Of a stretch of DNA of 53,429 nucleotides, positions 4,241-35,468 are shown one piece after another. The stretch covers positions 1-53,429 of the IMG/VR virus record IMGVR_UViG_3300048599_000234. One strand, 5' to 3'. A program made the position numbers and the translations under genes. A model generated the notes under the pieces. It searched no databases, was not told where the DNA came from, and saw nothing but the letters and a program-made list of their open reading frames with translations. Source of the stretch: a virus (Duplodnaviria > Caudoviricetes). Within the stretch, counting starts at the first letter, position 1. Each line of letters opens with the position of its first letter.

Positions 4241-5359
4241 ATGAGCTTTCTTCGCAACCGCCTGCTGGGCGGCGTGAGCTTCCTGCCGTTGTTTGCGCCT
4301 GAGGGCGTCGGTTCTGGAGCTGGTGAGGGTGCGGCTGCGGGGGCGGCGGCTGCCGCCGGTGCCGGCTCAGCGGCGGCGGGAGCCGGGCAGGCAGGTGCCG
4401 GCGAAGGCACCAAAGCTGCGTCCGCTGCGCCAGGTGCTGCAACGCTCGCCGGCGGCGCCGATGGCGGTGAGGCGGCGGCCGCCGCTGCTGCTGCCGCCGC
4501 GGCCAGTTCCAGCGCGGCCGGCAAGCTGCCGGAGGGTTTCGATTTCCGCGCCTATCTCGCCGCCGGCGACAAGGACGTCGCCAAGGATCTCGAAAAATAC
4601 ACCGATCCGAAGGCGATCTATACCGCCTTGCGCGAGGTGCAGGCCAAGATCTCCAAGGGCGAGCTGAAGCTCGCGCCGAAGCCGCTGGCGGCGAACGCGA
4701 CCGACGAGCAGAAGGCCGAATGGCGCAAGGCCAACGGCCTGCCGGACAAGCCCGAGAACTATGTCGAGAAGCTCGAATTGCCGAACGGCATGGTGGTGGG
4801 CGAGGGCGACAAGGAGCTGGTCGGCGATTTCGCCAAGATGATGTTCGAGCAGGGCGGCAGCCAGGCCGAGATGAATCGCGCGGTGGCGTGGTTCTACCAG
4901 GCGCAGGATGCGATGAAGCAGCGCCAGGCCGACGCCGACCAGGAGAGCATCATCGCCTCGACGATCGCACTGCGCAGCGAGTGGGGCTCCGAATACAAGG
5001 CCAACATGAACGCGCAGCAAGCGCTGCTGCTGACCATGCCGGAGGAGTTCAAGAACGAGCTGCTGACGTCGCGCACCGCCTCCGGCCAGATGCTCGGCAA
5101 CACCGCGGGCTTCCTGAAATGGGCGGCGCAGACCGCGCGCGATCTCAATCCCGCAGCGACCATCGTCCCGAATGGCGGCGACGCCGGCAAGACCATCGGC
5201 GCCGAGATCGCCTCGATCGAGGAGACCTTCCGCAAGGCCGCCGGCGGCGACGGCGAGGCGCACCGGGCCTATTACGGCAAGGACGGCCAGCCCGGCCTCG
5301 ATGCGCGCCACCGCGAGCTGCTCGGCATGCAGGAGAAGATGCAGAAGCGCGCCTCGTGA
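4241..5359 (+). CDS. Capsid scaffolding/assembly protein
   Basis: Ala/Gly-rich N-terminus, GLPDKPENY and ALRSEWG motifs; lies between portal and capsid. Confidence 0.8.
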   Translation: MSFLRNRLLGGVSFLPLFAPEGVGSGAGEGAAAGAAAAAGAGSAAAGAGQAGAGEGTKAASAAPGAATLAGGADGGEAAAAAAAAAAASSSAAGKLPEGFDFRAYLAAGDKDVAKDLEKYTDPKAIYTALREVQAKISKGELKLAPKPLAANATDEQKAEWRKANGLPDKPENYVEKLELPNGMVVGEGDKELVGDFAKMMFEQGGSQAEMNRAVAWFYQAQDAMKQRQADADQESIIASTIALRSEWGSEYKANMNAQQALLLTMPEEFKNELLTSRTASGQMLGNTAGFLKWAAQTARDLNPAATIVPNGGDAGKTIGAEIASIEETFRKAAGGDGEAHRAYYGKDGQPGLDARHRELLGMQEKMQKRAS

Positions 5360-5775
5360 TCATCGTCCAGTCCTATCCGCCGCTGATCGACGAGATCGAT
5401 TGCCGCTTCAACGTGCGCGGCAAGCCGATCCTGTTCGCCTGGGGCGCTTATATCTACAACCCGGCGGGCGTGCCGGTGGGGCCCGAACTGGTCGCGCACG
5501 AGGCCGTGCATGGCGAGCGCCAGAACGTCTGCGAGGAAGGCGTCGAAGGCTGGTGGCGGCTCTATATCGAGTCGCCGATGTTCCGGCTCGAGGAAGAGAA
5601 GCCGGCGCATGTCGCCGAGTTCAAGGCGCTGTGCGAGCTGCAGCGCAAGCACTGGCATAGCGAGCGCAACATGCGCCGCAGGCTGGCCACGCATGTCGCT
5701 CACAAGCTGTCATCGCCGCTCTATGGGCGGCTGATCCCATTCGAGGAGGCGAAGCGCTTCCTGCTCGCCGCCTGA
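5356..5775 (+). CDS. HExxH-containing putative metallopeptidase
   Basis: GTGA overlap with the scaffold gene; LVAHEAVHGERQ plus a downstream E (LEEEKPAH). Confidence 0.65.
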   Translation: MIIVQSYPPLIDEIDCRFNVRGKPILFAWGAYIYNPAGVPVGPELVAHEAVHGERQNVCEEGVEGWWRLYIESPMFRLEEEKPAHVAEFKALCELQRKHWHSERNMRRRLATHVAHKLSSPLYGRLIPFEEAKRFLLAA

Positions 5776-5794
5776 TCCAATTCCCGCCGTCGCA

Positions 5795-17887: not shown

Positions 17888-20428
17888 ATGGCAGGTAAAT
17901 ACGACGATTGCATCGATCGCGTCGTCAAGGCCTCGGGCGGCAAGCTGACGCGCGAGCAGGTCGAAGAAGCACTGACGGAACTCGACGCACGGGCCGAGCG
18001 CAGGGCAAAAGCCGGCCGATCGTCCGACGAATCGATGCGCGAGGCCGCGCAGGAGATGCAGGACGCCTTCATCGAACGAGCCGCCGTGCTGAAGCGCAAC
18101 GAACGCATGGACGTGCTGAAGGCGATCAAGTTCAACCGCTATGTTGGACGTGCGCCGAACGCCGCCACCGGCTTCGAGGCTTTTCTCGGCGGCGTCAATG
18201 TCGTGTTCGAGGGCTCGCGGCTCGGCATTGATCAGAAATTCAAGGCGTTCCGCAAAAAGCTCGGGGGAAGCTTTGAAACCGACCTTCAGCGCAACGGGCT
18301 CGACAAGCTGTTCCACTCCAAGACGCTAGAGCGGGAATGGGCGATCGAGCTGCACGAACTCAACAAGGGCGAACGGGGCAAGCCCGGCCTGACGCAGAGC
18401 GCCGACGCGCTGAAGATCGCCGAAGTGATCCAGCGCCACCAGAAGCTGACAGTCGAGACCCTGAATGGCGCCGGCGGCTGGGTGAAATCGTTGACCGGCT
18501 ATATCTTCCGCAACACCCACGACGCCATCAAGATCACCAAGGCCGGGATGGACCGATGGGCGGATGACGTGCTGGCGCATCTCGACATCCGGCGCACGTT
18601 CCACCACGACAATGCCGACCAGGCGCGGTTCGAACTGAAGAAGATGTTTCCGCAATTTGCGACCGGCGACCACCAGGACTATAGCCGCCCGCTGGATGAG
18701 CTGACGGCGACGCTCGGGATCGACCTCGGCTATAAGGTCTCGGCGCCGCGCGAATTGTTCTGGAAGTCGGCGGACGATCAGCTCGCCTATAATGCACAAT
18801 ACGGACGCTACAATCCGACGCTCGCGATCAAGAAGGCGCTGGAGGATTCGGCGCGGGCGGCATCGCTGCTCGATTCGTTCGGGTCGAAGCCGAAAGAGAC
18901 CTTCGAGAAGGCGCTGCACGAATGGGCCGGCAAGCTGCGCGAAGGCGGCAAGCTCGACCAGTACAAGCAGCTTGAGAAAAAGGAAGCCTATCTTCGCAGC
19001 CTGTTCGCACAGGTCGACGGTTCGGCCAACCGGCCTGTGAACGAAACCTATGCGCGGATCGGCTCGGATATCCGCATCGTCCAGCGGATCAGCAAGCTGG
19101 GCTTGACCCTGTTAGCCCAGCTCGCGGACCTCGCCACCAAGGCCTCCGAACTGCGCTACCAGGGCGTGAGCTTCGGCGAAAGGCACCTCAGCGCCCTGAC
19201 CGACTATTTCAAGGGCCCGATGGACGGCGAGAAGCGCCAGATCGCGGAGCTTCTCGGCCACGCGATCGATTCCGAAATCGCCAATATCTCGGCGCATTTC
19301 GATTATGGCGACATCGGCCACGACGCGCTGGCGCGCGCCGAACGCGCCTTCTTCCGCTGGTCGCTGATGAGCGCGATGACCTACAACCAGCGCCATGCCG
19401 CTGAGCGGATCATGGCTCGGCATATGGGGATGCAGCGCGGCAAGGCGCATGCCGAACTCGGCGGCGCCGAGGCTAGGGCAATGAAGTTGTTCGACATCAA
19501 CAAGGCGGAATGGGAGCTTCTGCGCAAGGTGGAGTGGAACGAGATCGGCGGCAAGACCTATCTGACGCCTGAAGTCGCGACGCGCCTGAGCGACGCAGAC
19601 GTGAAGGCCTATCTGGTCGAGACCGGCAAGCTGCACAAGGATGCGTCCGGCCCGGCCGTCGATCTGATGGTCAAGGATGCCCGCGACAATCTCGGGATCA
19701 AGCTCGCCAGCTATTTTGCCGATCGCGGCGAATACGCGGTGCTGGAAGTCGGCGCGCGCGAACGGGCGCGGCTCTACGGCGGCGCCAGCGAGGAATGGCG
19801 GCCGGGCACCGTCAAGGGCGAGGCGCTGCGCTTAATGCTGCAATTCAAGGCGTTTCCAACCGCGATGATCATGAAGACCTGGGGCCGCGAATTATACGGC
19901 CAGGAGCGCTCGCTCAACCAGGTGGCCGGCATCACCGAGTTCATCGCCTATGCGACGCTGCTGGGCGTCGCGGCCAGTGCCTTGAACCAGCTCGTCAAGG
20001 GTCAGGACCCGCTCTCGAAATGGCGGAACAAGCCGGGCGAGGCGCTACTCGCGGGCTTCATCCGCGGCGGCGCTGCCAGCATCTACGGCGATTATTTGCT
20101 GTCGGAATTCAGCCGGCACGGCTTTTCGTTCGTGCAGGGGCTGGCCGGACCGACCTTCGGTCAGGCCGACAGTTTGATGGAAATCTGGAACGCCTTGCGC
20201 AGCGGCAATGTAAAGGAGCAGACGGGGGTGGCGGCGGCGCGGCTGGCCCGCAACAACGCGCCGTTCATGAATCTCTGGTTCACCAAATGGGGCTTCGACG
20301 CGCTGGTCTATTGGCAATTCGCGGAATGGATGTCGCCGGGTTTCTCGCAACGGCTTGAGCGGACCACCAAGGAACGGCAGGGCATCGAATATCTGCCGCT
20401 GCTGGCGCCGACGACGGTGGCGCGCTAG
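17888..20428 (+). CDS. Large internal virion (ejection) protein, gp16-like
   Basis: 846 aa; GTVKGEALRLMLQFKAFP and RGGAASIYGDYL C-terminal motifs. Confidence 0.85.
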   Translation: MAGKYDDCIDRVVKASGGKLTREQVEEALTELDARAERRAKAGRSSDESMREAAQEMQDAFIERAAVLKRNERMDVLKAIKFNRYVGRAPNAATGFEAFLGGVNVVFEGSRLGIDQKFKAFRKKLGGSFETDLQRNGLDKLFHSKTLEREWAIELHELNKGERGKPGLTQSADALKIAEVIQRHQKLTVETLNGAGGWVKSLTGYIFRNTHDAIKITKAGMDRWADDVLAHLDIRRTFHHDNADQARFELKKMFPQFATGDHQDYSRPLDELTATLGIDLGYKVSAPRELFWKSADDQLAYNAQYGRYNPTLAIKKALEDSARAASLLDSFGSKPKETFEKALHEWAGKLREGGKLDQYKQLEKKEAYLRSLFAQVDGSANRPVNETYARIGSDIRIVQRISKLGLTLLAQLADLATKASELRYQGVSFGERHLSALTDYFKGPMDGEKRQIAELLGHAIDSEIANISAHFDYGDIGHDALARAERAFFRWSLMSAMTYNQRHAAERIMARHMGMQRGKAHAELGGAEARAMKLFDINKAEWELLRKVEWNEIGGKTYLTPEVATRLSDADVKAYLVETGKLHKDASGPAVDLMVKDARDNLGIKLASYFADRGEYAVLEVGARERARLYGGASEEWRPGTVKGEALRLMLQFKAFPTAMIMKTWGRELYGQERSLNQVAGITEFIAYATLLGVAASALNQLVKGQDPLSKWRNKPGEALLAGFIRGGAASIYGDYLLSEFSRHGFSFVQGLAGPTFGQADSLMEIWNALRSGNVKEQTGVAAARLARNNAPFMNLWFTKWGFDALVYWQFAEWMSPGFSQRLERTTKERQGIEYLPLLAPTTVAR

Positions 20429-20745: not shown

Positions 20746-21069
20746 TCAGCGAAACCCACGAACAACAATGAGATGTGCCGCGAAAACCGCGGCGCCAGCG
20801 ACGTCCAAGTAAAACCAGACGTTGCGGCTCAGATGGATCGGAATAATTGGATTGAAGAGAATCGCGACCAGGCCCAGCAGCACGGAAAAGCTTCGCGCGA
20901 CCTGCCCTTCGTTCCAGCCGGCATAGGCGAACAGCGCAGCCGCGGCGCAGATGACAATTCGGGTCAGGGTGTAATAACCGTAGGGAAGGCGCGCCGTCGC
21001 GATCAGCAGCAGCGCGACCGGAATGAGCCAGACGTACCAGGGGATGGATTTTGTTGTCATGCCCCACAA
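20746..21069 (-). CDS. DUF6804-like membrane protein
   Basis: LPYGYYTLTRIVIC...ILFNPIIPIHL...W..LD motif. Confidence 0.75.
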   Translation of the reverse strand: MWGMTTKSIPWYVWLIPVALLLIATARLPYGYYTLTRIVICAAAALFAYAGWNEGQVARSFSVLLGLVAILFNPIIPIHLSRNVWFYLDVAGAAVFAAHLIVVRGFR

Positions 21070-21143
21070 CTACGATGCGGGCATCGTGCCTGAGTCTGCA
21101 ACCGGGAGTCGATAGGGCGCGAGCGAGTTATCCTCAGCTGGCC

Positions 21144-21299
21144 TTACTTGAGGTAGCCTTTTTTCTTTAGATGGTCCGTTAAAAGCTTCTCGATGAGGGC
21201 GGATAGCGACCGGCTGTCGTCGCGCGCGGCCTTTTCCGCAGCCAGCTTTAATGCGGGGCGGACGCGAATCAATATCTGCGTGCTTTTCTTTTCGTCCAT
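21144..21299 (-). CDS. Ribbon-helix-helix (Arc/CopG-like) repressor, 51 aa (not in ORF track)
   Basis: Translated by hand: MDEKKSTQILIRVRPALKLAAEKAARDDSRSLSALIEKLLTDHLKKKGYLK. Confidence 0.8.
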   Translation of the reverse strand: MDEKKSTQILIRVRPALKLAAEKAARDDSRSLSALIEKLLTDHLKKKGYLK

Positions 21300-21306
21300 T
21301 GGAATT

Positions 21307-21365
21307 TGTATATCACACTGATTGACAGTCCGCTCGTTCTGTGGTGTATATCAAGTCGATATACA
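21307..21365. promoter_or_regulatory. Divergent promoter with three TGTATATC operator boxes
   Basis: TGTATATCA at 21307 and 21345, inverted GATATACA at 21358; TTGACA at 21322-21327. Confidence 0.7.
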
Positions 21366-21426
21366 TGCGGCCCCCGAAGGTGTTTGAGCCACCTCCGAGG
21401 GCCTGACCCGACCCACGGAGTGGACC

Positions 21427-21879
21427 ATGGCCCAGGCTGAATCAGCATCTACCACACGACGAGATTTTCTTCGACTTGGCACGACCGCCGTTCTGTCCAG
21501 CCCGGCGGCCGTGACAATGGCGATGGCGGCGGGCAAGCGCGCCCACGTTCACACCGCCGCCATCGCCCACCCCGATGCGGCGCTGCTTGCTCTGGCCAGC
21601 CCGCTGCGGGCGGCGATGCTGGAGGAAAACGCAGCGATCGAAACAGATGCTCCTGCGGAAGTGGTCGAGGCGGCCTATGATCGCGCCGCGGCGCTCGTGC
21701 GGGCGGTGCCCGACATGGTCGCGCAGACGCCCGAAGGGCTTCGGGTGAAGTGCCTGGCGCTGCAATGGGCGCGCGGCATTGATGACGATTGGCAGTTGGG
21801 CGGCCCGGACACGACCGACTGGCAACTGCTCGGCTCGATCGTTCGCGACGTCGTCGCGATGTGCGAAGCCCGGCGGTGA
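21427..21879 (+). CDS. Hypothetical protein with twin-Arg-like N-terminus
   Basis: RBS GGAG; TRRDFL; HPDAALLAL...AQTPEGLRVK motif seen in rhizobial prophage proteins. Confidence 0.7.
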   Translation: MAQAESASTTRRDFLRLGTTAVLSSPAAVTMAMAAGKRAHVHTAAIAHPDAALLALASPLRAAMLEENAAIETDAPAEVVEAAYDRAAALVRAVPDMVAQTPEGLRVKCLALQWARGIDDDWQLGGPDTTDWQLLGSIVRDVVAMCEARR

Positions 21880-22298
21880 CCTATGAGGATTATATTCGTT
21901 CATCCCTATGGAAGGCCAAACGAGCCGAGGCGCTTGCAAGGGATGGTTTCCGCTGCCGCCTCTGCGATTCGCCTGGCGAACTCGAGGTTCATCACCGACG
22001 TTATCCGCAACAACTCGGCACGGAGAGTATCGACGATCTCACGACCTTATGTTGCGAGTGTCACGAGATCGCGACCACGATCATCCGGCGGCGACGCTAC
22101 GCAGGTCGCGATGTCACAACCGCCGACCATGCCGGTCGCGAAGCCGGAGAGTTCGGACGGGGACGGCGGGATGTGCGTGTTGCGCTTCACGATGCGCGGC
22201 GTCAGTCCTCTGCTGACCCATTCAAGCCGGCTCGCCAATCCGCTCGACGCGGTGACGAAGGAGATGAAGCGGATATCGAAGAAGCGGGCAAAGACTGA
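21876..22298 (+). CDS. HNH endonuclease
   Basis: GTGA-coupled; YEDYIRSSLW...RDGFRCRLC...LEVHHRRY...DLTTLCCECH. Confidence 0.85.
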   Translation: MTYEDYIRSSLWKAKRAEALARDGFRCRLCDSPGELEVHHRRYPQQLGTESIDDLTTLCCECHEIATTIIRRRRYAGRDVTTADHAGREAGEFGRGRRDVRVALHDARRQSSADPFKPARQSARRGDEGDEADIEEAGKD

Positions 22299-22386
22299 CG
22301 CCGATCTGGAATATCTCGCTCGGTTGGAATTTCTTGGCGGGCTGTGGCTGCAGGACGGGGAACCGTGCATTCCCGGCGAGGCGTAG
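22171..22386 (+). pseudogene. Truncated RAMP/Cas7-like (Vipr-like) protein, N-terminal 71 aa
   Basis: LRFTMRGVSPLLTH (first RRM strand, G-x-S/T-P-L) and GEPCIPGEA (P-x-I-P-G motif), then an immediate TAG; directly upstream of the pentamer array. Confidence 0.65.
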
Positions 22387-22406
22387 CCGCGTCAGCGGTT
22401 AGAGAC

Positions 22407-22516
22407 GCCATGGTGTGGCACGGCGGGGCAAGGCGTGTCTTGGCAAGGCTGGCTGTGGCAGGCTAGGGCAGGCCGAGGTGTGGTTTGGCCTGGTATGGCG
22501 GGGTCAGGCAAGGCAG
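22407..22516 (+). repeat. Phased GGY-NN pentamer array (22 units), candidate guide RNA
   Basis: Exact 5-nt period without indels; 17 of 22 units start with GGY and all 22 with G-N-Y; the last two bases are variable. Confidence 0.85.
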
Positions 22517-22520
22517 GGGT

Positions 22521-22554
22521 GAAAGGCCGTCTCTCTGAGGCGGCCTTTCCGTTT
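22521..22554 (+). terminator. Hairpin/terminator closing the pentamer array
   Basis: GAAAGGCCGTCTC-TCT-GAGGCGGCCTTTC followed by CGTTT. Confidence 0.7.
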
Positions 22555-22829
22555 GGCGCCGCGAGCAACGACGAGAGAAGCGCGCGGCCCGCCGGCGGAC
22601 GATCAGCAGCCCCGGCGATTCTGGGTCGGCCGCACAATCTCCGGCCCGGTCGCGCGACGGTCCCGGTGATCCGGCCGGCTTGAAGCCCGCGTCGGACCTA
22701 CAAACCCCGCTTTCTCGGTACTACGACGGGGAGGCGGGACCGCAGACCCCTATAGGCGCGAATCCGGCCGACGTCGAGGCGGCCTTTCCGTTTACCGGTT
22801 CGCGCTAGCGTCGCCCGCATGGAGGCCCG

Positions 22830-23285
22830 ATGCCCGACGTTGCGATTTTCGAGGCGATGATCGAGGACCTGAAGCTGCGCCGGCTGACCGGCCGGCCGGC
22901 GGTTGCGACGGATCGGCGCCAGGCTGAAGCGCAGGCGCTGCTCGACCGCATGCTCGATGCCGGGATACTACCGCGCGACGAACTGGCGCTGGCGATCAAT
23001 GGACTTCAGGTGCTGCGGTGCAACTTATTGTGGGCCGCGCAAAATCCGGGGCCGCCGCCGGACGAGGCCGAGATGGAGCGCCTCATGGCCTCTCTGCTGC
23101 GATCGCGCGCGCGATTTGCTGGCGAAACGATTCTAATGTCGCGCGATCTAATCGCAGCGCAAGATCGACTTGATGCGATGTTTCGATCAGGAGAATTACC
23201 TTCTGATCCTCATCAAGCTCTGCATGTGTTCCGGTCACGTCGTACTGATAGCGCGGCCGCATCGAGGCCTCCCGTCGAGACCTAG
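22830..23285 (+). CDS. Hypothetical protein
   Basis: RBS GGAGG; the 3' half overlaps a convergent ORF (23083..23262), so the extent is uncertain. Confidence 0.5.
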   Translation: MPDVAIFEAMIEDLKLRRLTGRPAVATDRRQAEAQALLDRMLDAGILPRDELALAINGLQVLRCNLLWAAQNPGPPPDEAEMERLMASLLRSRARFAGETILMSRDLIAAQDRLDAMFRSGELPSDPHQALHVFRSRRTDSAAASRPPVET

Positions 23286-23340
23286 CGTTTCCGAGTCGCG
23301 CACCGCGAGTCGATAGCGCAAGAACAGTTTTCCGCAAGTC

Positions 23341-23363
23341 AGCCGCCTCCGGGCGGCTTTTTT
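23341..23363 (+). terminator. Rho-independent terminator before the tail fibre
   Basis: AGCCGCC-TCCG-GGCGGCT followed by TTTTT. Confidence 0.8.
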
Positions 23364-23377
23364 ATTGAGGTTCACCG

Positions 23378-25102
23378 ATGACGACGACCGACCGCCGCTA
23401 CAGCGTGGCCGAAGGCCTTGGCGTGAAGGCACCCGTGCGGGTGGCGACCACCGCCTCGGTTGCGCATTCCGGCCTGCAGGTGATCGATGGCGTGCAGACG
23501 ATCGAGAATGACCGCATTCTCGACAAGGACCATGCCGACGGCACGCTGCGCGGCATCTGGCTCGCCTCGAGCGGCGACTGGCGGCGCGCGCCGGATTTCG
23601 ACGGCGACCGCGACATCACCCGGGGCACCCGGGTATTCGTCGCCGAAGGCTCGGCCAATATCGGCCGCGATTTCTACGTCACGACCGCAAACCCGATCAC
23701 GATCGGCACCACGGCGCTCACCTTCCAGTATTTCGGGGCGCTCGGCATCCTGGAGCTGGTCGACGACACGACGCCCCAGCTCGGCGGGACGCTCGACACC
23801 AATGCGAAACAGATCCGCTGGTCGAAAGGCGCCGACGTCGCGTCCGCGAACGCGCTCACGCTCGGCAATGACGGCAATTATTTTGACATCACCGGCACCA
23901 CGGCGATCACCTCGATCGCGACCAAGGCCGCCGGCACCCATGTGAAGCTGCATTTCGACGCCGCGCTGACGCTCACCCATCACGCCGTCAATCTGATCCT
24001 GCCGTCGGGCGCCTCGATCGCGGTCGCCGCCGGCGACGAGGCCGAATTCGTTGAATATGCGACCGGGCAATGGCGCTGCACGTCTTATCAGCGCGCCGCC
24101 GGAAAGCCGCTCGCAACCGACTTGGCGTTGGCGCTGTCGATGTTGAACGGCACGCTGGCCGAAAGCCGCAACGCCAACGCGGTCACGTTCGCGATCAAGA
24201 CTGTCGCCGGCAACGATCCGTCGCCAACCGATCCGGTCACAATCCTGTTCCGCGATGCGGCCGCCGGTACCGGCGGCCTGGTCGCTCGCACGGTCACGGC
24301 GGCGCTCTCGCTGACGCTTTCGGCGGGCTCGACGCTCGGCTTTTCCAGCGGGGTGCCGGGACGCCTGTGGCTGGTGGCGTTCGACGACGGCGGCACGGTG
24401 CGGCTGGGTGCCATCAATTGCCGTTCGTCCGCCGACATCTATCCGCTCGCCGGATGGAATATCGCCTCGTCCACCGCCGAAGGCGGCGCCGGCGGCGCCG
24501 ACAGCGCCTGGGTGTTCTACACCGCAGCCGCGGTCACATCGAAGGCCTATGCTTTGCTCGCGGCGGTGAACTACGGAGCCGGGCTCGCCACGGCCGGAAA
24601 CTGGGACGTGGCCCCGTCGCGGATGCAGCTGTTTGGTCCGGGCACCCAGCTGCCCGGCGAGATCGTCCAGACGCAGCTGACCGCGACCGGCCTGCTCGCC
24701 ACCGGCACGACGGTGGTGCCGGAAGACGACACCATTCCGCAGATCACCGAAGGCACTGAATTCATGACGCGGACGATCACGCCGACGTCCGGCGCCAATC
24801 TGATCGAAGTGGAGGTGCAGGCCTGCGCGGCGGTTTCGGCCGGCAACCGGATCGCGGGCGCGTTGTTCCTGGATGCGGTCGCGAACGCCCTGGCTGCGGG
24901 AATTCAGAACGCGACCAACGCCATCCCGGCAATATTGAGGTTGCGTATCTTCATGCTGGCGTCGTCGACCGCGACCATGACGCTGCGCTTTCGCGCCGGC
25001 CCGGTCAGCGCCGGCACACTCACCTTCAACGGCTCCGGCGGCTCGCGCGAATTTGGCGGGGTTGCCAATTCCTACATCATCGCCCGGGAGATCGTCGCAT
25101 GA
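23378..25102 (+). CDS. Tail fibre protein
   Basis: 574 aa; KAPVRVATT...SGLQVIDGV N-domain, DTTPQLGGTLD motif, Thr/Gly-rich; lies just before lysis. Confidence 0.82.
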   Translation: MTTTDRRYSVAEGLGVKAPVRVATTASVAHSGLQVIDGVQTIENDRILDKDHADGTLRGIWLASSGDWRRAPDFDGDRDITRGTRVFVAEGSANIGRDFYVTTANPITIGTTALTFQYFGALGILELVDDTTPQLGGTLDTNAKQIRWSKGADVASANALTLGNDGNYFDITGTTAITSIATKAAGTHVKLHFDAALTLTHHAVNLILPSGASIAVAAGDEAEFVEYATGQWRCTSYQRAAGKPLATDLALALSMLNGTLAESRNANAVTFAIKTVAGNDPSPTDPVTILFRDAAAGTGGLVARTVTAALSLTLSAGSTLGFSSGVPGRLWLVAFDDGGTVRLGAINCRSSADIYPLAGWNIASSTAEGGAGGADSAWVFYTAAAVTSKAYALLAAVNYGAGLATAGNWDVAPSRMQLFGPGTQLPGEIVQTQLTATGLLATGTTVVPEDDTIPQITEGTEFMTRTITPTSGANLIEVEVQACAAVSAGNRIAGALFLDAVANALAAGIQNATNAIPAILRLRIFMLASSTATMTLRFRAGPVSAGTLTFNGSGGSREFGGVANSYIIAREIVA

Positions 25103-31687: not shown

Positions 31688-33040
31688 TTACGCTGTTCCG
31701 CCGTCGTCGCCAGCCGTCTTGCGCAGCTCGCGCTTGGCATCGGCGACCAGGTCGTTCTTCTTCGAACCGCGCCGGCGAATGTAGCTGACGGTGGTCTCCG
31801 TCCTGGTGTGGTTCAGCGAGTCGCGGATCAATTCGATCGGCACGCCGGCATTCTCCGCCTCGGTCGCTGCGCCCGGCCGCGCGTCCCGGTTCCAGACTTC
31901 CTTCGGGATCCCGGCAGCGTCGGCGATGCGCCGGAACCAGCGCGAATATTGCGCGCGCAGGATCGGCAGGCCGCCTTCGCCCTTCACGATCGGACCCTTG
32001 CGCTCGTCATGCGGCACCGCCTCGAGCAGCGGCATCAGCAGGTCGTACTTCGTCAGGTCGAACTCCGCCGGCGACTTGTATTTCGATTTCGACGTGCGCG
32101 TGCGCCAGCGCCAGCCCGGGATGTTCTCCCAGGTGTAATAACCGGCCCAGATCTTGGTGCCGATGCGGATCTGGGGAATGTCGGCGCGCAGCTTCGGCGC
32201 CGGCACCATCGGGTGGTAGTCGCCGATGATGTCGAGCTGGCGGACGCCGAACTCGAATTGCGAGGCGACGCCGATCGCGAGGTAGCGCGCGCGGTCGGCC
32301 GGGATCGCGCCCTTGGCGCCGAGCTCGCCGGCCGTGCGGATGAAATCGCGCGCCATCGCATAGGTCATTTCAAGTTCGCGGGAGCCGCGACGCTCGAACG
32401 TGACCAGCTTCAGCTCCTCGACCAGCTGATGGCAGTCCTTCTTGCGAAGCGCCGCCATGAAGCGCAGCACGGTGCGCAGCATCGCGATCCCGTCATGCGC
32501 GCGGTCGATGCGTTCAGCTCCGAAAATCGCCGCGCCGGCGCCGTCGCGGCCGATGATGGCGGGCTTGCGCCATTCGCGATACCATCGCTTGCAATCGACG
32601 ATGGTGCAGTTCTTGACGACGCGGGTGCCGATCGTCTTGATGATCAGGCGCAGCGAGACCAGATAGGTATCGCGCGTCGAATGCTTGACGGTGTGGAAGT
32701 CCGAATCCGGGTGTTCCTGATAGATCCTGCAGGCGCTGCCGATGGTGCCGTCATAGATCGTGATGACCGGCAACAGCCCGTCGGCCTGGTGCGCCTTCTT
32801 CCGGTCCTCGATCCAGTCGAACAGGCGGGCGCTGTGCTCCTGGCACAGCCGGTCGATTTCAGCGTCGCTTGCGCCGGTCGGCAAGGCGATGCACGGATCC
32901 GGAAAGCCCAGCGTCTCCCGGACCACGTTCTTCGCGATCCAGTAGCGGAGATTGTTGCGGCCGATCTTGTGTCCTGGCCTTGCGCCCCGGGGCGGCATCG
33001 AAGTCTTCTTGCCCATCTTCGGCGGTTGCGGTCGGCTCAT
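31688..33040 (-). CDS. int: Tyrosine integrase
   Basis: FGVRQLDII (R), KSK, WNRDAR, LNH...TVSY; adjacent to attP; start uncertain (32998-33100). Confidence 0.88.
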   Translation of the reverse strand: MSRPQPPKMGKKTSMPPRGARPGHKIGRNNLRYWIAKNVVRETLGFPDPCIALPTGASDAEIDRLCQEHSARLFDWIEDRKKAHQADGLLPVITIYDGTIGSACRIYQEHPDSDFHTVKHSTRDTYLVSLRLIIKTIGTRVVKNCTIVDCKRWYREWRKPAIIGRDGAGAAIFGAERIDRAHDGIAMLRTVLRFMAALRKKDCHQLVEELKLVTFERRGSRELEMTYAMARDFIRTAGELGAKGAIPADRARYLAIGVASQFEFGVRQLDIIGDYHPMVPAPKLRADIPQIRIGTKIWAGYYTWENIPGWRWRTRTSKSKYKSPAEFDLTKYDLLMPLLEAVPHDERKGPIVKGEGGLPILRAQYSRWFRRIADAAGIPKEVWNRDARPGAATEAENAGVPIELIRDSLNHTRTETTVSYIRRRGSKKNDLVADAKRELRKTAGDDGGTA

Positions 33041-33302
33041 TTGCGGCCATCCCCTCGGCATCGTCCAGCCAGGCCTTGCATTTTGGCCAATAACGCCCAC
33101 GCCACAACGAGTTCACCTGTGGAAAGCCCTTCGGCTCCTGACTTTTCAGCGCCGCACTGAAGCTGTCGCGGCCCATATGCGGCGCGACCAGCTGGTGCAG
33201 CGTCTTGTCGTCGACATAGGCCGGCATGGCGCCAGCGGCGGTCGAGAGCCGGCCGATCGCGGCGCGCAGGTCGGCGAGCAACTCGCGAAGGTCAGCCGAC
33301 AC
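32859..33302 (-). CDS. xis: Excisionase-like protein overlapping int
   Basis: KGFPQ...WRGRYWPKCKAWLD motif; directly upstream of the integrase. Confidence 0.65.
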   Translation of the reverse strand: MSADLRELLADLRAAIGRLSTAAGAMPAYVDDKTLHQLVAPHMGRDSFSAALKSQEPKGFPQVNSLWRGRYWPKCKAWLDDAEGMAANEPTATAEDGQEDFDAAPGRKARTQDRPQQSPLLDREERGPGDAGLSGSVHRLADRRKRR

Positions 33303-33678: not shown

Positions 33679-33929
33679 AGGATCAGCCTCAGCGGAATCG
33701 CCTCGACGCTCGGGCGCATATCGGCCTGGCGCCGCAGCTGCTCGTCGAAGGCGCGCGTCAGCCGGTCGATCTCCGGATGGGATTTGGAGATTTCCGGCGC
33801 GATGCGGGTGATGAAGGCCTGCACCGGAATGCCGTCCTCGGTCGCGCCCTGCCAGACCCGCGCCGGCACCGCCGTGCCGTTGACGATCAGCTCGACGATC
33901 TTGTCGGTGTTTTCGAGCGTGATCTTCAT
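33675..33929 (-). CDS. Hypothetical protein
   Basis: MKITLENT...VPARVWQG.TEDGIPV; ATGA-coupled. Confidence 0.68.
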   Translation of the reverse strand: MKITLENTDKIVELIVNGTAVPARVWQGATEDGIPVQAFITRIAPEISKSHPEIDRLTRAFDEQLRRQADMRPSVEAIPLRLIL

Positions 33930-34402
33930 GCGACGATCCTTTCCGGGTAATTCCAGAAGCCCTGAAAGCCGCGGATCGGCACAGGCTCGCGGAACGGCGA
34001 CACATGAAAAAGCGGCCATGCCCAATTGAAATCGCCGCGATCGCTGTCCTCGACTTTCATCTTGAACAGATCGCAAGCGAGCAGCGGCTCGCCGAGGCAG
34101 GCCGTGCCGAGCGCGGCAGCGAGCGGGAGGAGGCGATACTTGTGCGCCGCGCGAACGCGCAGCAGGAGAGTGCGCGCTTTCTCGGCGTCAAGTCCGGTCT
34201 GCGGGTCACACCTATCAATCCGGCGCAGCAGGTCCTCGACTTCAGCGGGCTTCACCGACCGGGCGCCAGCGTGGATCACAATCTTCTCGCCGAGGCCTGG
34301 CGCATTCGAGTAGGCCGTAAAGGGCTTGGGCCGAAACTCGTTGGGCTTCGCACCAACCATGATCAGCGAGGCCCAGGGTTGCCAGATTGTGATCGCCCGC
34401 AT
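33926..34402 (-). CDS. ASCH-domain protein
   Basis: MRAITIWQPWASLI..GAK..EFR, IVIHAG, PIRGFQGFW. Confidence 0.8.
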   Translation of the reverse strand: MRAITIWQPWASLIMVGAKPNEFRPKPFTAYSNAPGLGEKIVIHAGARSVKPAEVEDLLRRIDRCDPQTGLDAEKARTLLLRVRAAHKYRLLPLAAALGTACLGEPLLACDLFKMKVEDSDRGDFNWAWPLFHVSPFREPVPIRGFQGFWNYPERIVA

Positions 34403-34873
34403 CACGCCGCCTCGTCGTGGAAGCGCGCGCCGCAGGCGACGCAATAGGAATTGAGCTGGTCGGTGTAGAGCCGCCTGGCGTGCGCGCACCGGCGCCGAGC
34501 CGCTGAGGCCCTGCGCGATCGAGACCAGGGCGCCGCGCTGTTGCGGTCGCTCGATGGCGAGGAAGGCTTCGGCCAACGCAAGCCCTTGCGCGGTGCCGAG
34601 CATTTCGGTGACAAGATCGCGCGCGTCGCCGGTTTGCGATTCCTCGGTGGCGCCGTCGAAGAACCAGGACACCGGCCGCTTGAAGGTGGCGGCGATCTGC
34701 ACCATCCGGCTCGAGCCGATCCGGTTCACACCCTTTTCGTATTTCTGCACCTGCTGGAAGGTGACGCCGAGTTTCTCGCCGAGCTTCTCCTGGCTCATAT
34801 TGGCGAGCGTGCGCGCGAGCCGCACGCGGGCGCCGACGAATTTGTCGACTTGTTGGGGGCCGGTTCTGGTCAT
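34403..34873 (-). CDS. XRE-family HTH regulator, reads in frame into the ASCH gene
   Basis: DKFVGARVRLAR...MSQEKLGEKLGVTFQQVQKYEKGVNRI; no stop before the ASCH ATG. Confidence 0.8.
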
Positions 34874-35140: not shown

Positions 35141-35424
35141 CGCCGCGTGTTCCTCGAAAGGGTGGCCAGCGTGGCGACGCCTACCAACAGCGCCACGCCG
35201 ATCGCCGCCAGGTGGGGGTATGAGCCACCTGCCGGGATTGCGAAATTCTCGACGATGTCGTGAAGCAGCAGCGGATCGGCCGCGAGCCGCAAGGCTGCGA
35301 ACGAGGCGGACACGCCGGCGATCACCACCAGGGCGGTGGCGATCAGCCGGCGCGGGCCCACCGCGACAAGAGCCGGGCGCCGGTCGCGCAAGGGAGGAGC
35401 GGGGGGCAGGACTTGTACCTGCAT
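35137..35424 (-). CDS. Small membrane protein
   Basis: Two hydrophobic segments; start uncertain because it overlaps the tRNA-like element. Confidence 0.5.
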   Translation of the reverse strand: MQVQVLPPAPPLRDRRPALVAVGPRRLIATALVVIAGVSASFAALRLAADPLLLHDIVENFAIPAGGSYPHLAAIGVALLVGVATLATLSRNTRR

Positions 35425-35468
35425 CGTCGGGCGGGAACCCGCTGCTCTGTCGGTTGAGCTACCCCCGC
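35396..35468 (-). tRNA. Degenerate tRNA-Gly(CCC)-like element
   Basis: GCGGGGG TA GCTC AACCGACA GAGC A GCGGG TTCCCG CCCG ACGAT GCAGG TACAAGT CCTGC CCCCCGC TCC: perfect acceptor, D and T stems; aberrant loops. Confidence 0.6.

What the first reader, a model, noticed from the sequence alone, without database searches (positions are those of the whole stretch)
22171..22554. RAMP/Cas7-like gene followed by a phased GGY-NN pentamer array: candidate RNA-guided system with a gapped dinucleotide code
Seen: 22407-22516 is 22 consecutive 5-mers in perfect register (GCC AT, GGT GT, GGC AC, GGC GG, GGC AA, GGC GT, GTC TT, GGC AA, GGC TG, GCT GT, GGC AG, GCT AG, GGC AG, GCC GA, GGT GT, GGT TT, GGC CT, GGT AT, GGC GG, GGT CA, GGC AA, GGC AG). 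The triplet is constant (17 GGY, all G-N-Y) while the dinucleotide varies freely, unlike a slippage microsatellite. A 5-nt period is hard to explain by protein coding. The array starts 20 bp after a gene with RAMP-type motifs (RGVSPLL; PCIPGE) and ends in a terminator. Knowledge: RAMP/Cas7 proteins polymerise along guide RNAs with a fixed period, and I recall a recently described phage system (VIPR) with alternating GGY/NN RNAs. Inference: GGY is the protein-binding scaffold and the NNs (AT GT AC GG AA GT TT AA TG GT AG AG AG GA GT TT CT AT GG CA AA AG) spell one or two gapped targets, possibly in a competing phage. The protein stops after 71 aa, so this copy looks decayed, or the RNA is used by a protein supplied in trans.
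Basis: partly seen in the sequence, partly recalled or inferred. Interest (0 to 1): 0.92.

Follow-up and report, generated by a model that had tools for sequence, protein, structure and literature searches.

The report
Broken VIPR locus with intact guide RNA
This is a phage copy of the recently described VIPR RNA-guided silencing system whose protein gene is cut short but whose guide RNA looks intact, and the guide appears aimed at two things in rival phages.

Summary

**What is there**
- Window 22407-22516 (+) is a 22-unit GGY-NN pentamer array, the only one in the 53-kb phage record.
- It is followed by a conserved tail hairpin.
- The 71-codon ORF before it is the N-terminal 37% of a ~189-aa family. 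That family's profile hits the solved SUSP1 Vipr protein at E=3.8e-45.
- About 340 nt of vipr are missing, including the thumb and the G-loop. No second copy is in the record.
- Full-length relatives carry arrays with different NNs directly downstream, and usually an HNH gene upstream.

**Predicted targets (published one-base-skip rule)**
- Units 1-11 read antisense to the invariant QFKxFP motif of a podophage internal-virion-protein family. This is the unique best site in 51 of 54 family loci.
- Units 12-20 read antisense to the first codons of the HNH gene heading VIPR loci of other prophages (16/18 in three). This is the unique best site in 13 of 22 loci, against 0 of 200 shuffles.
- The phage's own copies match 68% and 72%.

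**Reading and novelty**
It is most likely a VIPR-null phage keeping a "solo" vrRNA for use with a rival's Vipr; a fossil is the main rival explanation. The kind is already published (2026 preprints), so this is a new member, with a possibly new two-target guide.

The parts
21876..22298 (+). HNH endonuclease gene (140 aa, looks intact), candidate VIPR accessory gene. Its 3' end overlaps the vipr start in another frame.
   Evidence: Pfam HNH PF01844 E=2.7e-6 and PHROGs HNH families. A homologue starts 0-450 nt upstream of vipr on the same strand in 103 of 160 vipr loci. The overlap with vipr is 104-197 nt in the window and in all 11 relatives checked.
22171..22386 (+). Truncated vipr: 71 codons plus TAG, equal to residues 1-~72 of a ~189-aa Vipr. 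It keeps the conserved His (H17) and the PGE motif. It lacks the thumb (RTRP) and the G-loop (GDWRPRFGRF).
   Evidence: 109 longer homologues, best at 70% identity and mostly 186-192 aa. Alignment A1. The A1 profile hits PDB 36pp_D 'SUSP1 Vipr protein' at E=3.8e-45. DNA alignment A2 follows the relatives up to CCCGGCGAGG, ending at 22379, and then diverges. No C-terminal half is present anywhere in the record.
22380..22406 (+). Junction: the stop codon and ~20 nt of leftover sequence between the deletion breakpoint and the array.
   Evidence: Local alignments to the 3' ends of relatives' vipr genes are weak and ambiguous (best 17 of 19 nt, L007). Start codon to array start is 236 nt here and 575 nt in L002, a net loss of about 340 nt.
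22407..22461 (+). vrRNA units 1-11, the 5' guide segment (NN = AT GT AC GG AA GT TT AA TG GT AG). Predicted target: the antisense strand of the QFKxFP motif region of podophage internal-virion-protein genes.
22462..22506 (+). vrRNA units 12-20, the 3' guide segment (NN = AG AG GA GT TT CT AT GG CA). Predicted target: the antisense strand of the start codon and first ~8 codons of the HNH gene in other VIPR loci.
22507..22516 (+). Units 21-22 (GGCAA GGCAG), identical in relatives L002 and L005. Probably part of the constant 3' handle rather than the guide.
   Evidence: These two units mismatch at the HNH sites of L088 and L094.
22517..22554 (+). vrRNA tail: GGGTGA, a hairpin (arms 22521-22533 and 22537-22549) and CGTTT.
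   Evidence: In 16 aligned tails from the window and 9 loci, the same hairpin is predicted with 10 pairs, and every pair shows at least one compensatory change.
22776..22793 (+). Second exact copy of the 18-nt 3' arm of the tail, within a weaker hairpin. No pentamer array precedes it. Possibly a remnant of a second vrRNA.
   Evidence: repeat family D2, inverted pair I3. No array was called there.
19835..19866 (-). The phage's own counterpart of the 5' target, inside its internal-virion-protein gene (17888-20428, +). It matches only 15 of 22 guide positions.
   Evidence: PHROG 684 'virion structural protein' E=5.6e-133. Cultured relatives are annotated 'putative internal virion protein'.
21877..21902 (-). 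The phage's own counterpart of the 3' target (start of its own HNH gene). It matches 13 of 18 positions for units 12-20.
   Evidence: per-unit string 111111222201 for units 11-22.

Best explanation
The locus is a VIPR cassette (HNH gene, vipr, vrRNA) carried by a temperate podovirus-like phage with 65% G+C. Its nearest Vipr relatives are in Hyphomicrobiales.

An internal deletion of about 340 nt has removed the thumb and G-loop of Vipr, and the frame ends after 71 codons. The phage therefore cannot make a working Vipr from this gene (shown).

The vrRNA is preserved: 22 GGY-NN units, with GGY conformity like that of arrays beside intact vipr genes, plus the clade's conserved tail hairpin (shown).

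Read by the published rule (NN pairs, one target base skipped), the guide has two segments.
- Units 1-11 are antisense to the codons for ...LTQFKTFPVT(I/M), the invariant QFKxFP motif of the internal-virion-protein family of related podophages. The skipped base falls on the wobble position.
- Units 12-20 are antisense to the start codon and first codons of the HNH gene that heads HNH-vipr operons in other prophages (sequence relations shown; silencing inferred).
- The phage's own two sites match at 68% and 72%, below the published 80% criterion (shown).

Inferred mechanism: the RNA is transcribed with or after HNH-vipr'. In a cell that also holds a VIPR-positive phage, that phage's Vipr coats the RNA one protomer per GGY. 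The filament is then directed to the rival's own VIPR operon start and to a competitor podophage's essential virion gene, and blocks their transcription.
For: **Identity**
- The family profile A1 hits the solved SUSP1 Vipr over its full length, E=3.8e-45.
- The AF2 model of full-length relative P0001 has pLDDT 92.9. Its best Foldseek PDB hits are Csm3/Cas7 RAMPs, with 59 hits at E<=0.001.

**Linkage**
- An array of at least 8 units starts within 250 nt downstream of vipr, on the same strand, in 110 of 160 loci. The NNs differ between loci.

**Truncation**
-.
- The structure preprint (section 5, read) reports that R138A or D177A abolishes silencing. Both residues lie in the missing part.

**Array and tail preservation**
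- GGY conformity is 0.81 here, against a median of 0.83 (IQR 0.75-0.92) for 344 other arrays.
- The tail hairpin covaries across relatives.

**The rule holds in this clade**
- 345 arrays gave 72 hits (from 32 arrays) at skip 1.
- They gave 3-7 hits at skips 0, 2 and 3, and 2-7 hits for shuffled guides.

**5' segment**
- In 80 family loci fetched by protein alignment alone, 54 carry the motif. The segment's unique best match is at the motif register in 51 of those 54. For 100 shuffled guides the mean was 0.11 and the maximum 11.
- Site scores run 14-20 of 22. The observed maximum of 20 compares with a null maximum of 19, reached in 1 of 300 shuffles.
- L084 scores 21/22, codon-phased.

**3' segment**
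- It is the unique best match at the HNH-start register in 13 of 22 loci, against 0 of 200 shuffles.
- Units 12-20 score 16/18 in L088 (Microvirga vignae), L093 (Mesorhizobium MAG) and L094 (Methylobacterium sp. E-005).
- Units 11-22 score 20/24 in L093, a value reached in 1 of 300 shuffles.

**Cross-controls are null-like**
- The 5' segment on vipr loci scores 15; the 3' segment on family loci scores 16.

**Published precedent**
- Solo vrRNAs in vipr-deleted phages, some aimed at rivals' VIPR systems, with self-match lower than non-self match (10.64898/2026.10.15.759431, section 8, read).
Against: - There is no expression data: no sequencing run was listed for the region, so transcription, the RNA ends, and any processing into one or two RNAs are unknown.
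- No database sequence matches all 22 units. Each target matches only about half of the array, that is 43-64% of the whole guide. It is untested whether a half-matched 22-unit filament binds.
- The split into two segments was found post hoc, by sliding sub-guides.
- The best 5' match (L084, 21/22) is a 47% G+C phage and an implausible natural victim. The best high-G+C loci (L214, L222) reach 19/22.
- At the HNH site the skipped base is codon position 1, not the wobble position.
- The own HNH site (13/18) is near the median of the relatives, so self-avoidance there is weak.
- None of 5 VIPR-positive genomes or records searched holds the virion-protein family. None of the 5 closest podophage records holds vipr. 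No single rival carrying both targets is known.
- I could not show dual-target arrays as a general feature: 4 of 44 long arrays, against 1-5 of 44 for shuffled guides.
- The record is only ~85% complete.
Confidence: 0.55

Rival explanations
1. Fossil. The cassette was inactivated by the deletion and the vrRNA no longer does anything. Its matches to the virion-gene motif and to HNH starts only record what the ancestral, complete system targeted, and the long array may be two former vrRNAs fused by a deletion.
For: vipr is truncated and no other copy is in the record. A second tail-like copy sits 239 nt downstream with no array before it, which suggests further decay in the locus. 5 of 22 units have a degenerate GGY. 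No run was available to show expression.
Against: GGY conformity (0.81) is within the interquartile range of arrays beside intact vipr genes. The 13-bp tail hairpin and the GGGTGA motif are intact. The HNH gene is intact. Published vipr-deleted phages retain solo vrRNAs widely: 346 dereplicated phages (10.64898/2026.10.15.759431, section 8).
Confidence: 0.3
2. The system is really complete. Either the deletion and stop are an assembly or sequencing error, or an intact vipr lies in the ~15% of the genome that is not in the record.
For: CheckV completeness is 85% and the record is linear. There were no reads to verify the junction (one search listed no run).
Against: The loss is about 340 nt, not a single-base error. 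The truncated protein as called (P0110, 91 aa) is recorded on 2 contigs. In 160 relatives vipr sits directly upstream of its array, not elsewhere.
Confidence: 0.07
3. The array is one ordinary single-target guide whose true, fully matching target is not in any database searched. On this view the two half-matches are partial or coincidental.
For: No sequence matches more than 28 of 44 positions over the full guide. Published vrRNAs are described as single guides of 9-16 units in the SUSP1 and P. fulva clades.
Against: Both halves are register-specific across many independently fetched homologous loci: 51 of 54 and 13 of 22, against about 0 for shuffles. Each half is null-like on the other half's loci. 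A contiguous target would need an HNH start fused to the QFK motif.
Confidence: 0.05
4. It is not a guide RNA at all: a slippage microsatellite, or part of a protein-coding frame.
For: An open frame does cross the array: ORF 22435-22683, 82 aa.
Against: A 5-nt period with a fixed triplet and free dinucleotides is not a slippage pattern. That ORF has no family hit. Arrays in the same position have different NNs in 110 of 160 relatives.
Confidence: 0.01

Closest known systems
VIPR systems (Vipr + vrRNA), type II exemplars Escherichia phage SUSP1 and the Pseudomonas fulva prophage (bioRxiv 10.64898/2026.04.26.720920; structures 10.64898/2026.04.26.720927)
   Same: The protein family is the same: the profile hits SUSP1 Vipr at E=3.8e-45. 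It shares GGY-NN pentamer repeats followed by a structured 3' tail, phage or prophage carriage, and a one-base-skip relation to sequences in other mobile elements.
   Different: The Vipr here is truncated to 71 codons. The neighbouring gene is an upstream, overlapping HNH gene rather than the SUSP1 vap1. The array has 22 units, against the 9-16 reported for those clades, and appears to hold two target specificities. The tail is a simple hairpin as far as I can tell; a pseudoknot was not tested. I could not assign the VIPR type because the type tables are in supplements I could not read.
VIPR-null phages with solo vrRNAs, and satellite solo vrRNAs (bioRxiv 10.64898/2026.10.15.759431)
   Same: A phage that has lost a working vipr by deletion but keeps a vrRNA. 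One predicted target is the VIPR operon of relatives. The self-match is lower than the best non-self match.
   Different: Those are SUSP1-like Enterobacteriaceae phages that lost vipr and vap1 entirely, in one shared 1.1-1.4 kb deletion. Here the deletion is independent and internal, in an unrelated high-G+C temperate podophage. It leaves the N-terminal 71 codons and the HNH gene. The anti-VIPR footprint is on the HNH start, not on vipr or a vrRNA.
Class 1 CRISPR Cas7/Csm3 backbone filaments
   Same: The RAMP fold is shared: Foldseek top hits are Csm3/Cas7 at E about 4e-5 to 6e-4, TM about 0.45-0.5. One protomer binds per fixed RNA period, and a thumb flips bases.
   Different: There is no CRISPR repeat-spacer array, no cas genes and no adaptation module. 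The period is 5 nt with 2 read bases, rather than 6 nt with 5 read bases.

Membership tests
VIPR system | Vipr protein: a minimal RAMP with an RRM core, thumb and glycine-rich loop | tested here: not met
   The family as a whole meets it. The window's copy has only residues 1-71. The thumb (RTRP) and G-loop (GDWRPRFGRF) columns of A1 are absent, and no other copy is in the record. The locus is therefore a VIPR remnant, not a complete system.
VIPR system | vrRNA: at least 4 tandem GGY-NN (YNNGG) units with a conserved scaffold and hypervariable NN | tested here: met
   There are 22 units, 17 of them exact GGY. In relatives the NNs differ while GGY is kept.
VIPR system | An invariant structured 3' tail after the repeats | tested here: met
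   GGGTGA plus a hairpin is shared with L002, L005, L006, L013, L019, L020, L029 and L105. All 10 predicted pairs show compensatory changes. A pseudoknot was not examined.
VIPR system | NN dinucleotides specify targets with one skipped base, in competing mobile elements, with no self-target at 80% or more | tested here: met
   The skip-1 rule was replicated in this clade. Two target classes were found. The own sites match 15/22 and 13/18. This is sequence evidence only; binding was not tested.
VIPR system | An accessory vap gene beside vipr | tested here: inconclusive
   An HNH gene lies directly upstream in 103 of 160 loci. The discovery preprint's legend to Fig. S21 mentions HNH-domain Vap proteins, but which type and which gene order is in supplements I could not read.
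VIPR system | The vrRNA is expressed and co-purifies with Vipr | not testable with these tools
   No sequencing run was listed.
VIPR-null solo-vrRNA phage | A phage genome without a functional vipr that still carries a vrRNA | tested here: met
   Caveat: the record is about 85% complete.
VIPR-null solo-vrRNA phage | The guide is directed at rival elements, including rivals' VIPR loci, with a self-match lower than the non-self match | tested here: met
   HNH-start sites score 16/18 in three VIPR-positive prophages against 13/18 for the own site. Of 345 arrays, this one gave 6 of the 9 hits at 16/18 or better in HNH-vipr operons, and two other arrays gave the other 3; the null gave 1 hit.
CRISPR-Cas | A repeat-spacer array and cas operon | tested here: not met
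   There are no direct repeats of CRISPR type. Only RAMP fold similarity is present.

The most novel reading that the evidence does not exclude
A single in-register vrRNA array carries two concatenated guides with unrelated targets. A phage that has lost its own Vipr keeps this RNA in order to capture a rival prophage's Vipr. It then turns that protein both on the rival's own HNH-vipr operon start (anti-VIPR) and on the invariant motif of a competitor podophage's internal-virion-protein gene. That would make it a dual-specificity 'guide for hire'.
Probability: 0.35. Interest if true: 0.7.

Novelty: new member of a known kind. Interest (0 to 1): 0.5.

Why it matters
VIPR was described only in 2026, and its natural targets are known mainly for enterobacterial and Pseudomonas phages.

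This locus extends the 'solo guide in a Vipr-less phage' idea to an unrelated high-G+C temperate phage with an independent deletion. It gives two concrete, testable target predictions:
- the start of rival VIPR operons;
- the most conserved motif of an essential virion gene, read in codon phase so that synonymous escape is hard.

If one array really holds two guides, natural vrRNAs can be multiplexed without separate tails. That would be relevant both to phage-phage conflict and to engineering VIPR for multi-site repression.

Tried and rejected
**Targets**
- The full 22-unit guide at skips 0-3 on the window and 80 vipr loci gave nothing above 57%, apart from the array itself at skip 3.
- The IMG/VR exact scan of units 14-22 gave one hit (L087, 42% G+C) that does not extend; I judged it chance.
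- Three of the five hits for units 2-10 (L082, L083, L086; 36-38% G+C) lie in no long ORF and do not extend; I judged them chance.
- The metagenome scan of units 2-11 returned only the L084 phage again.
- An exact 40-nt piece of the array occurs in no other IMG/VR contig.
- A genome-contig search with the 846-aa virion protein found no relative.
- None of the 344 other arrays targets the window above the null.
- I could not show that long arrays in general have two targets.

**Other searches**
- Rfam: only the tRNA passes gathering. A weak M23 hit (E=0.01) overlaps the tail on the minus strand and was dismissed.
- The promoter scan found none in 21000-23400.
- Reading through the TAG was rejected: the match to P0007 ends at the stop and no C-terminal similarity follows.
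- The right-hand deletion breakpoint could not be placed, because the alignments are weak.
- No sequencing run was listed for 21800-22900; no RNA holder was listed.
- Complex prediction was not used because nothing here hinged on it.

**Tools and sources not available**
- Supplements were not requested. The type tables, the vap definitions and the list of 664 loci may already include this clade, or staggered or multi-guide arrays.

**Papers: what I read**
- Discovery preprint 10.64898/2026.04.26.720920: outline, abstract, all of Results, methods sections 18, 20 and 27, and 'find' passages.
- Structure preprint 10.64898/2026.04.26.720927: outline, abstract, sections 5 and 6.
- Competition preprint 10.64898/2026.10.15.759431: outline, abstract, sections 8, 17 and 29, and 'find' passages.
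- The words bipartite, chimeric and dual are absent from the main texts of the first and third. That check is the only basis for saying a two-target array is not described there.
Full report
**The observation**

The sequence at 22407-22516 (+) is exactly as described. It is 22 pentamers in one register: 17 are exact GGY-NN and the other five are G-N-Y.
- A scan of both strands of the whole 53,429-nt window for at least 7 of 10 in-phase GGY found only this place.
- My array caller found one array in the window.
- The ORF at 22171-22386 has 71 codons and ends in TAG, 20 nt before the array.
- After the array come GGGTGA, a 13-bp hairpin with one mismatch (arms 22521-22533 and 22537-22549) and CGTTT.

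**Is VIPR real and known?**

Yes. A literature search found three 2026 bioRxiv preprints.
- The discovery paper (10.64898/2026.04.26.720920; I read Results and three methods sections) defines VIPR. It consists of a minimal RAMP protein, Vipr, plus vrRNAs made of alternating GGY/NN repeats and a structured tail. It is mostly phage- or prophage-borne. It recognises dsDNA by pairing each NN while skipping one target base, and it silences transcription in competing mobile elements.
- The structure paper (10.64898/2026.04.26.720927; sections 5 and 6) shows one protomer per repeat. It names the residues that hold GGY: in SUSP1 numbering H17, E71/M72, thumb R138 and G-loop D177/W178/R179. R138A or D177A abolishes silencing.
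- The third paper (10.64898/2026.10.15.759431; sections 8, 17 and 29) describes 'solo' vrRNAs on satellites and on 346 enterobacterial phages that have lost vipr and vap1. Some of these are predicted to target rivals' VIPR systems, with self-match lower than non-self match.

**The protein**
- The 71-aa product has 109 longer homologues, mostly 186-192 aa, with a best identity of 70%.
- It has 1,056 cluster representatives at E<=0.001.
- In alignment A1 the window's sequence covers only the first ~72 columns and stops right after the invariant PGE.
- The A1 profile matches PDB chain 36pp_D, 'SUSP1 Vipr protein', over its whole length at E=3.8e-45.
- An AlphaFold model of the full-length relative P0001 (pLDDT 92.9) finds Csm3/Cas7 RAMPs as its best PDB folds.
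- The family is therefore Vipr.
- The window's copy keeps the conserved His and the PGE motif. It lacks the thumb (RTRP) and the G-loop (GDWRPRFGRF).
- At DNA level the window follows the relatives up to CCCGGCGAGG, ending at 22379, and then diverges.
- Start codon to array start is 236 nt here against 575 nt in L002, so about 340 nt are missing.
- The right-hand breakpoint could not be placed.
- The window is the whole virus record: IMG/VR, linear, about 85% complete. It holds no other vipr, and nothing after the TAG resembles Vipr.
- The truncated protein as called (91 aa) is recorded on 2 contigs.

**Context**

The record is a temperate podovirus-like phage.
- It has a head-tail adaptor, a tail protein, an internal or virion structural protein (17888-20428, PHROG 684), an integrase and a repressor, and a tRNA.
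- Directly upstream of vipr is an intact HNH endonuclease gene (21876-22298).

**Relatives**

I fetched 160 loci with full-length vipr: 80 from IMG/VR and 80 from bacterial genomes. The genome loci are mostly Hyphomicrobiales such as Microvirga, Methylobacterium, Mesorhizobium and Bradyrhizobium, plus Azospirillum and others.
- An array of at least 8 units starts within 250 nt downstream of vipr on the same strand in 110 of 160 loci.
- An HNH homologue starts 0-450 nt upstream in 103 of 160.
- NNs differ from locus to locus while GGY is kept.
- The closest loci share the window's last two units and its GGGTGA-hairpin tail.
- In 16 aligned tails the hairpin's 10 pairs all show compensatory changes.
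- The window's array is as well kept as arrays beside intact genes: GGY conformity 0.81 against a median of 0.83. Its length, 21-22 units, is at the long end: the median is 13, and 27 of 344 arrays have at least 20 units.

**Does the skip rule hold here?**

Yes. I ran all 345 called arrays against about 1.7 Mb of fetched loci, with arrays masked and with the loci that had been fetched by guide patterns dropped.
- Skip 1 gave 72 hits, from 32 arrays.
- Skips 0, 2 and 3 gave 3-7 hits.
- Shuffled guides gave 2-7 hits.

**Targets of this guide: the 5' segment**
- The full 22-unit guide matches nothing well.
- An exact IMG/VR scan with units 2-10 gave five loci.
- Two of them, L084 and L085 (the same phage), place the match antisense and codon-phased, with the skipped base on the wobble position. 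The match lies inside a homologue (25% identity, E=5e-70) of the window's own internal-virion-protein gene, exactly at the family's invariant QFKxFP motif. Units 1-11 match 21 of 22 positions.
- Because that hit came from a guide-seeded search, I fetched 80 family loci by protein alignment alone.
- 54 of them carry the motif (51 distinct site sequences). In 51 of the 54, the unique best match of units 1-11 in the whole ~4.4-kb locus is at the motif register. For 100 shuffled guides the mean was 0.11 loci and the maximum 11.
- Site scores are 14-20 of 22. Five loci score 19 (L214 and L222 at 66% G+C; L174, L175 and L191 at 41-49%) and L178 scores 20.
- The maximum over the family loci is 20. 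Shuffled guides reached at most 19, and that in 1 of 300 shuffles.
- The phage's own site (19835-19866, -) scores 15 of 22.
- The metagenome scan with units 2-11 found only the L084 phage again.

**Targets of this guide: the 3' segment**
- Sliding 10-unit sub-guides over all loci showed that units 11-22 hit a different place: the antisense strand at the start codon and first codons of the HNH gene upstream of vipr. The scores are L093 20/24, L088 19/24 and L094 17/24, and units 12-20 score 16/18 in all three.
- Among the 22 vipr loci whose HNH N-terminus fits a simple motif, units 12-20 have their unique best match at that register in 13. In 200 shuffles this never happened.
- A score of 20/24 was reached in 1 of 300 shuffles.
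- The own HNH start scores 13/18.
- Here the skipped base is codon position 1 of HNH.
- Cross-controls are at null level.
- Across 345 arrays, this one gave 6 of the 9 hits at 16/18 or better within HNH-vipr operons. Two other arrays gave the remaining 3, and the null gave 1.
- Units 21-22 are shared with relatives and mostly mismatch, so they are probably part of the constant handle.

**Do both targets sit on one rival?**

Not in what I could see.
- Five VIPR-positive genomes or records, including L088, L093 and L094, hold no member of the virion-protein family.
- The five closest high-G+C podophage records hold no vipr.
- No other array targets this window above the null.
- I could not show two-target arrays as a general property.

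**Interpretation**

Shown:
- This is a VIPR cassette with a broken vipr, an intact HNH gene and an intact-looking vrRNA.
- The guide's two halves are specifically related, by the published code, to two different conserved sites in other phages.
- The phage's own sites fall below the published 80% criterion.

Inferred:
- The RNA is made.
- A Vipr supplied in trans by a co-resident VIPR-positive phage loads it.
- A filament matched over about half its length binds and silences.

The main rival reading is a fossil of a once-complete system. An assembly artefact, or a second vipr in the missing 15% of the genome, cannot be excluded without reads; none were listed.

**Novelty**

The kind of system, and even the Vipr-less solo-guide state, are already in print. 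This is a new member in a different phage and host group, with an independent internal deletion.

The one feature I did not find described in the main texts I read is a single in-register array with two unrelated targets. The preprints' supplementary figures on 'staggered' arrays, which I could not see, may cover something similar.

Noticed in passing
window 21876-22298 vs 22171-22386; loci L002, L003, L009, L019, L088, L091-L094, L105, L108: The HNH ORF runs 104-197 nt into the vipr coding region in another frame, in the window and in all 11 relatives checked. This is a conserved overlapping gene pair.
   Followed up: partly
window 22776-22793 (and 22762-22795): There is an exact 18-nt second copy of the 3' arm of the vrRNA tail, 239 nt downstream, within a weaker hairpin and with no pentamer array before it. 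It may be the remnant of a second vrRNA.
   Followed up: partly
window 22544-22594 (-): A weak Rfam match to M23 RNA (26 bits against a gathering score of 41, E=0.01) overlaps the tail hairpin. It is probably chance.
   Followed up: no
L106 array 5726-5785 to L105; L027 array 4981-5080 to L093: Two other vrRNAs match (16/18) inside rivals' HNH-vipr operons: within vipr in L105 and within HNH in L093. Anti-VIPR guides therefore also occur beside intact vipr genes in this clade.
   Followed up: partly
L011 3245-4983 (IMG/VR): At least 11 pentamer arrays lie head to tail, separated by short GGTGAT(A/G)ATTCA-like joints. This array architecture differs from the single array plus hairpin seen here.
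   Followed up: no
window 35398-35468 (-), 31688-33100 (-), 33926-34873 (-): A tRNA gene lies next to the integrase and repressor genes, the likely integration module of this temperate phage.
   Followed up: no
window 22400-22565 (+): The naked RNA is predicted to fold more stably than shuffles (z = -4.2), with pairing inside the repeat tract as well as in the tail hairpin. Whether this matters once Vipr coats the RNA is unknown.
   Followed up: no
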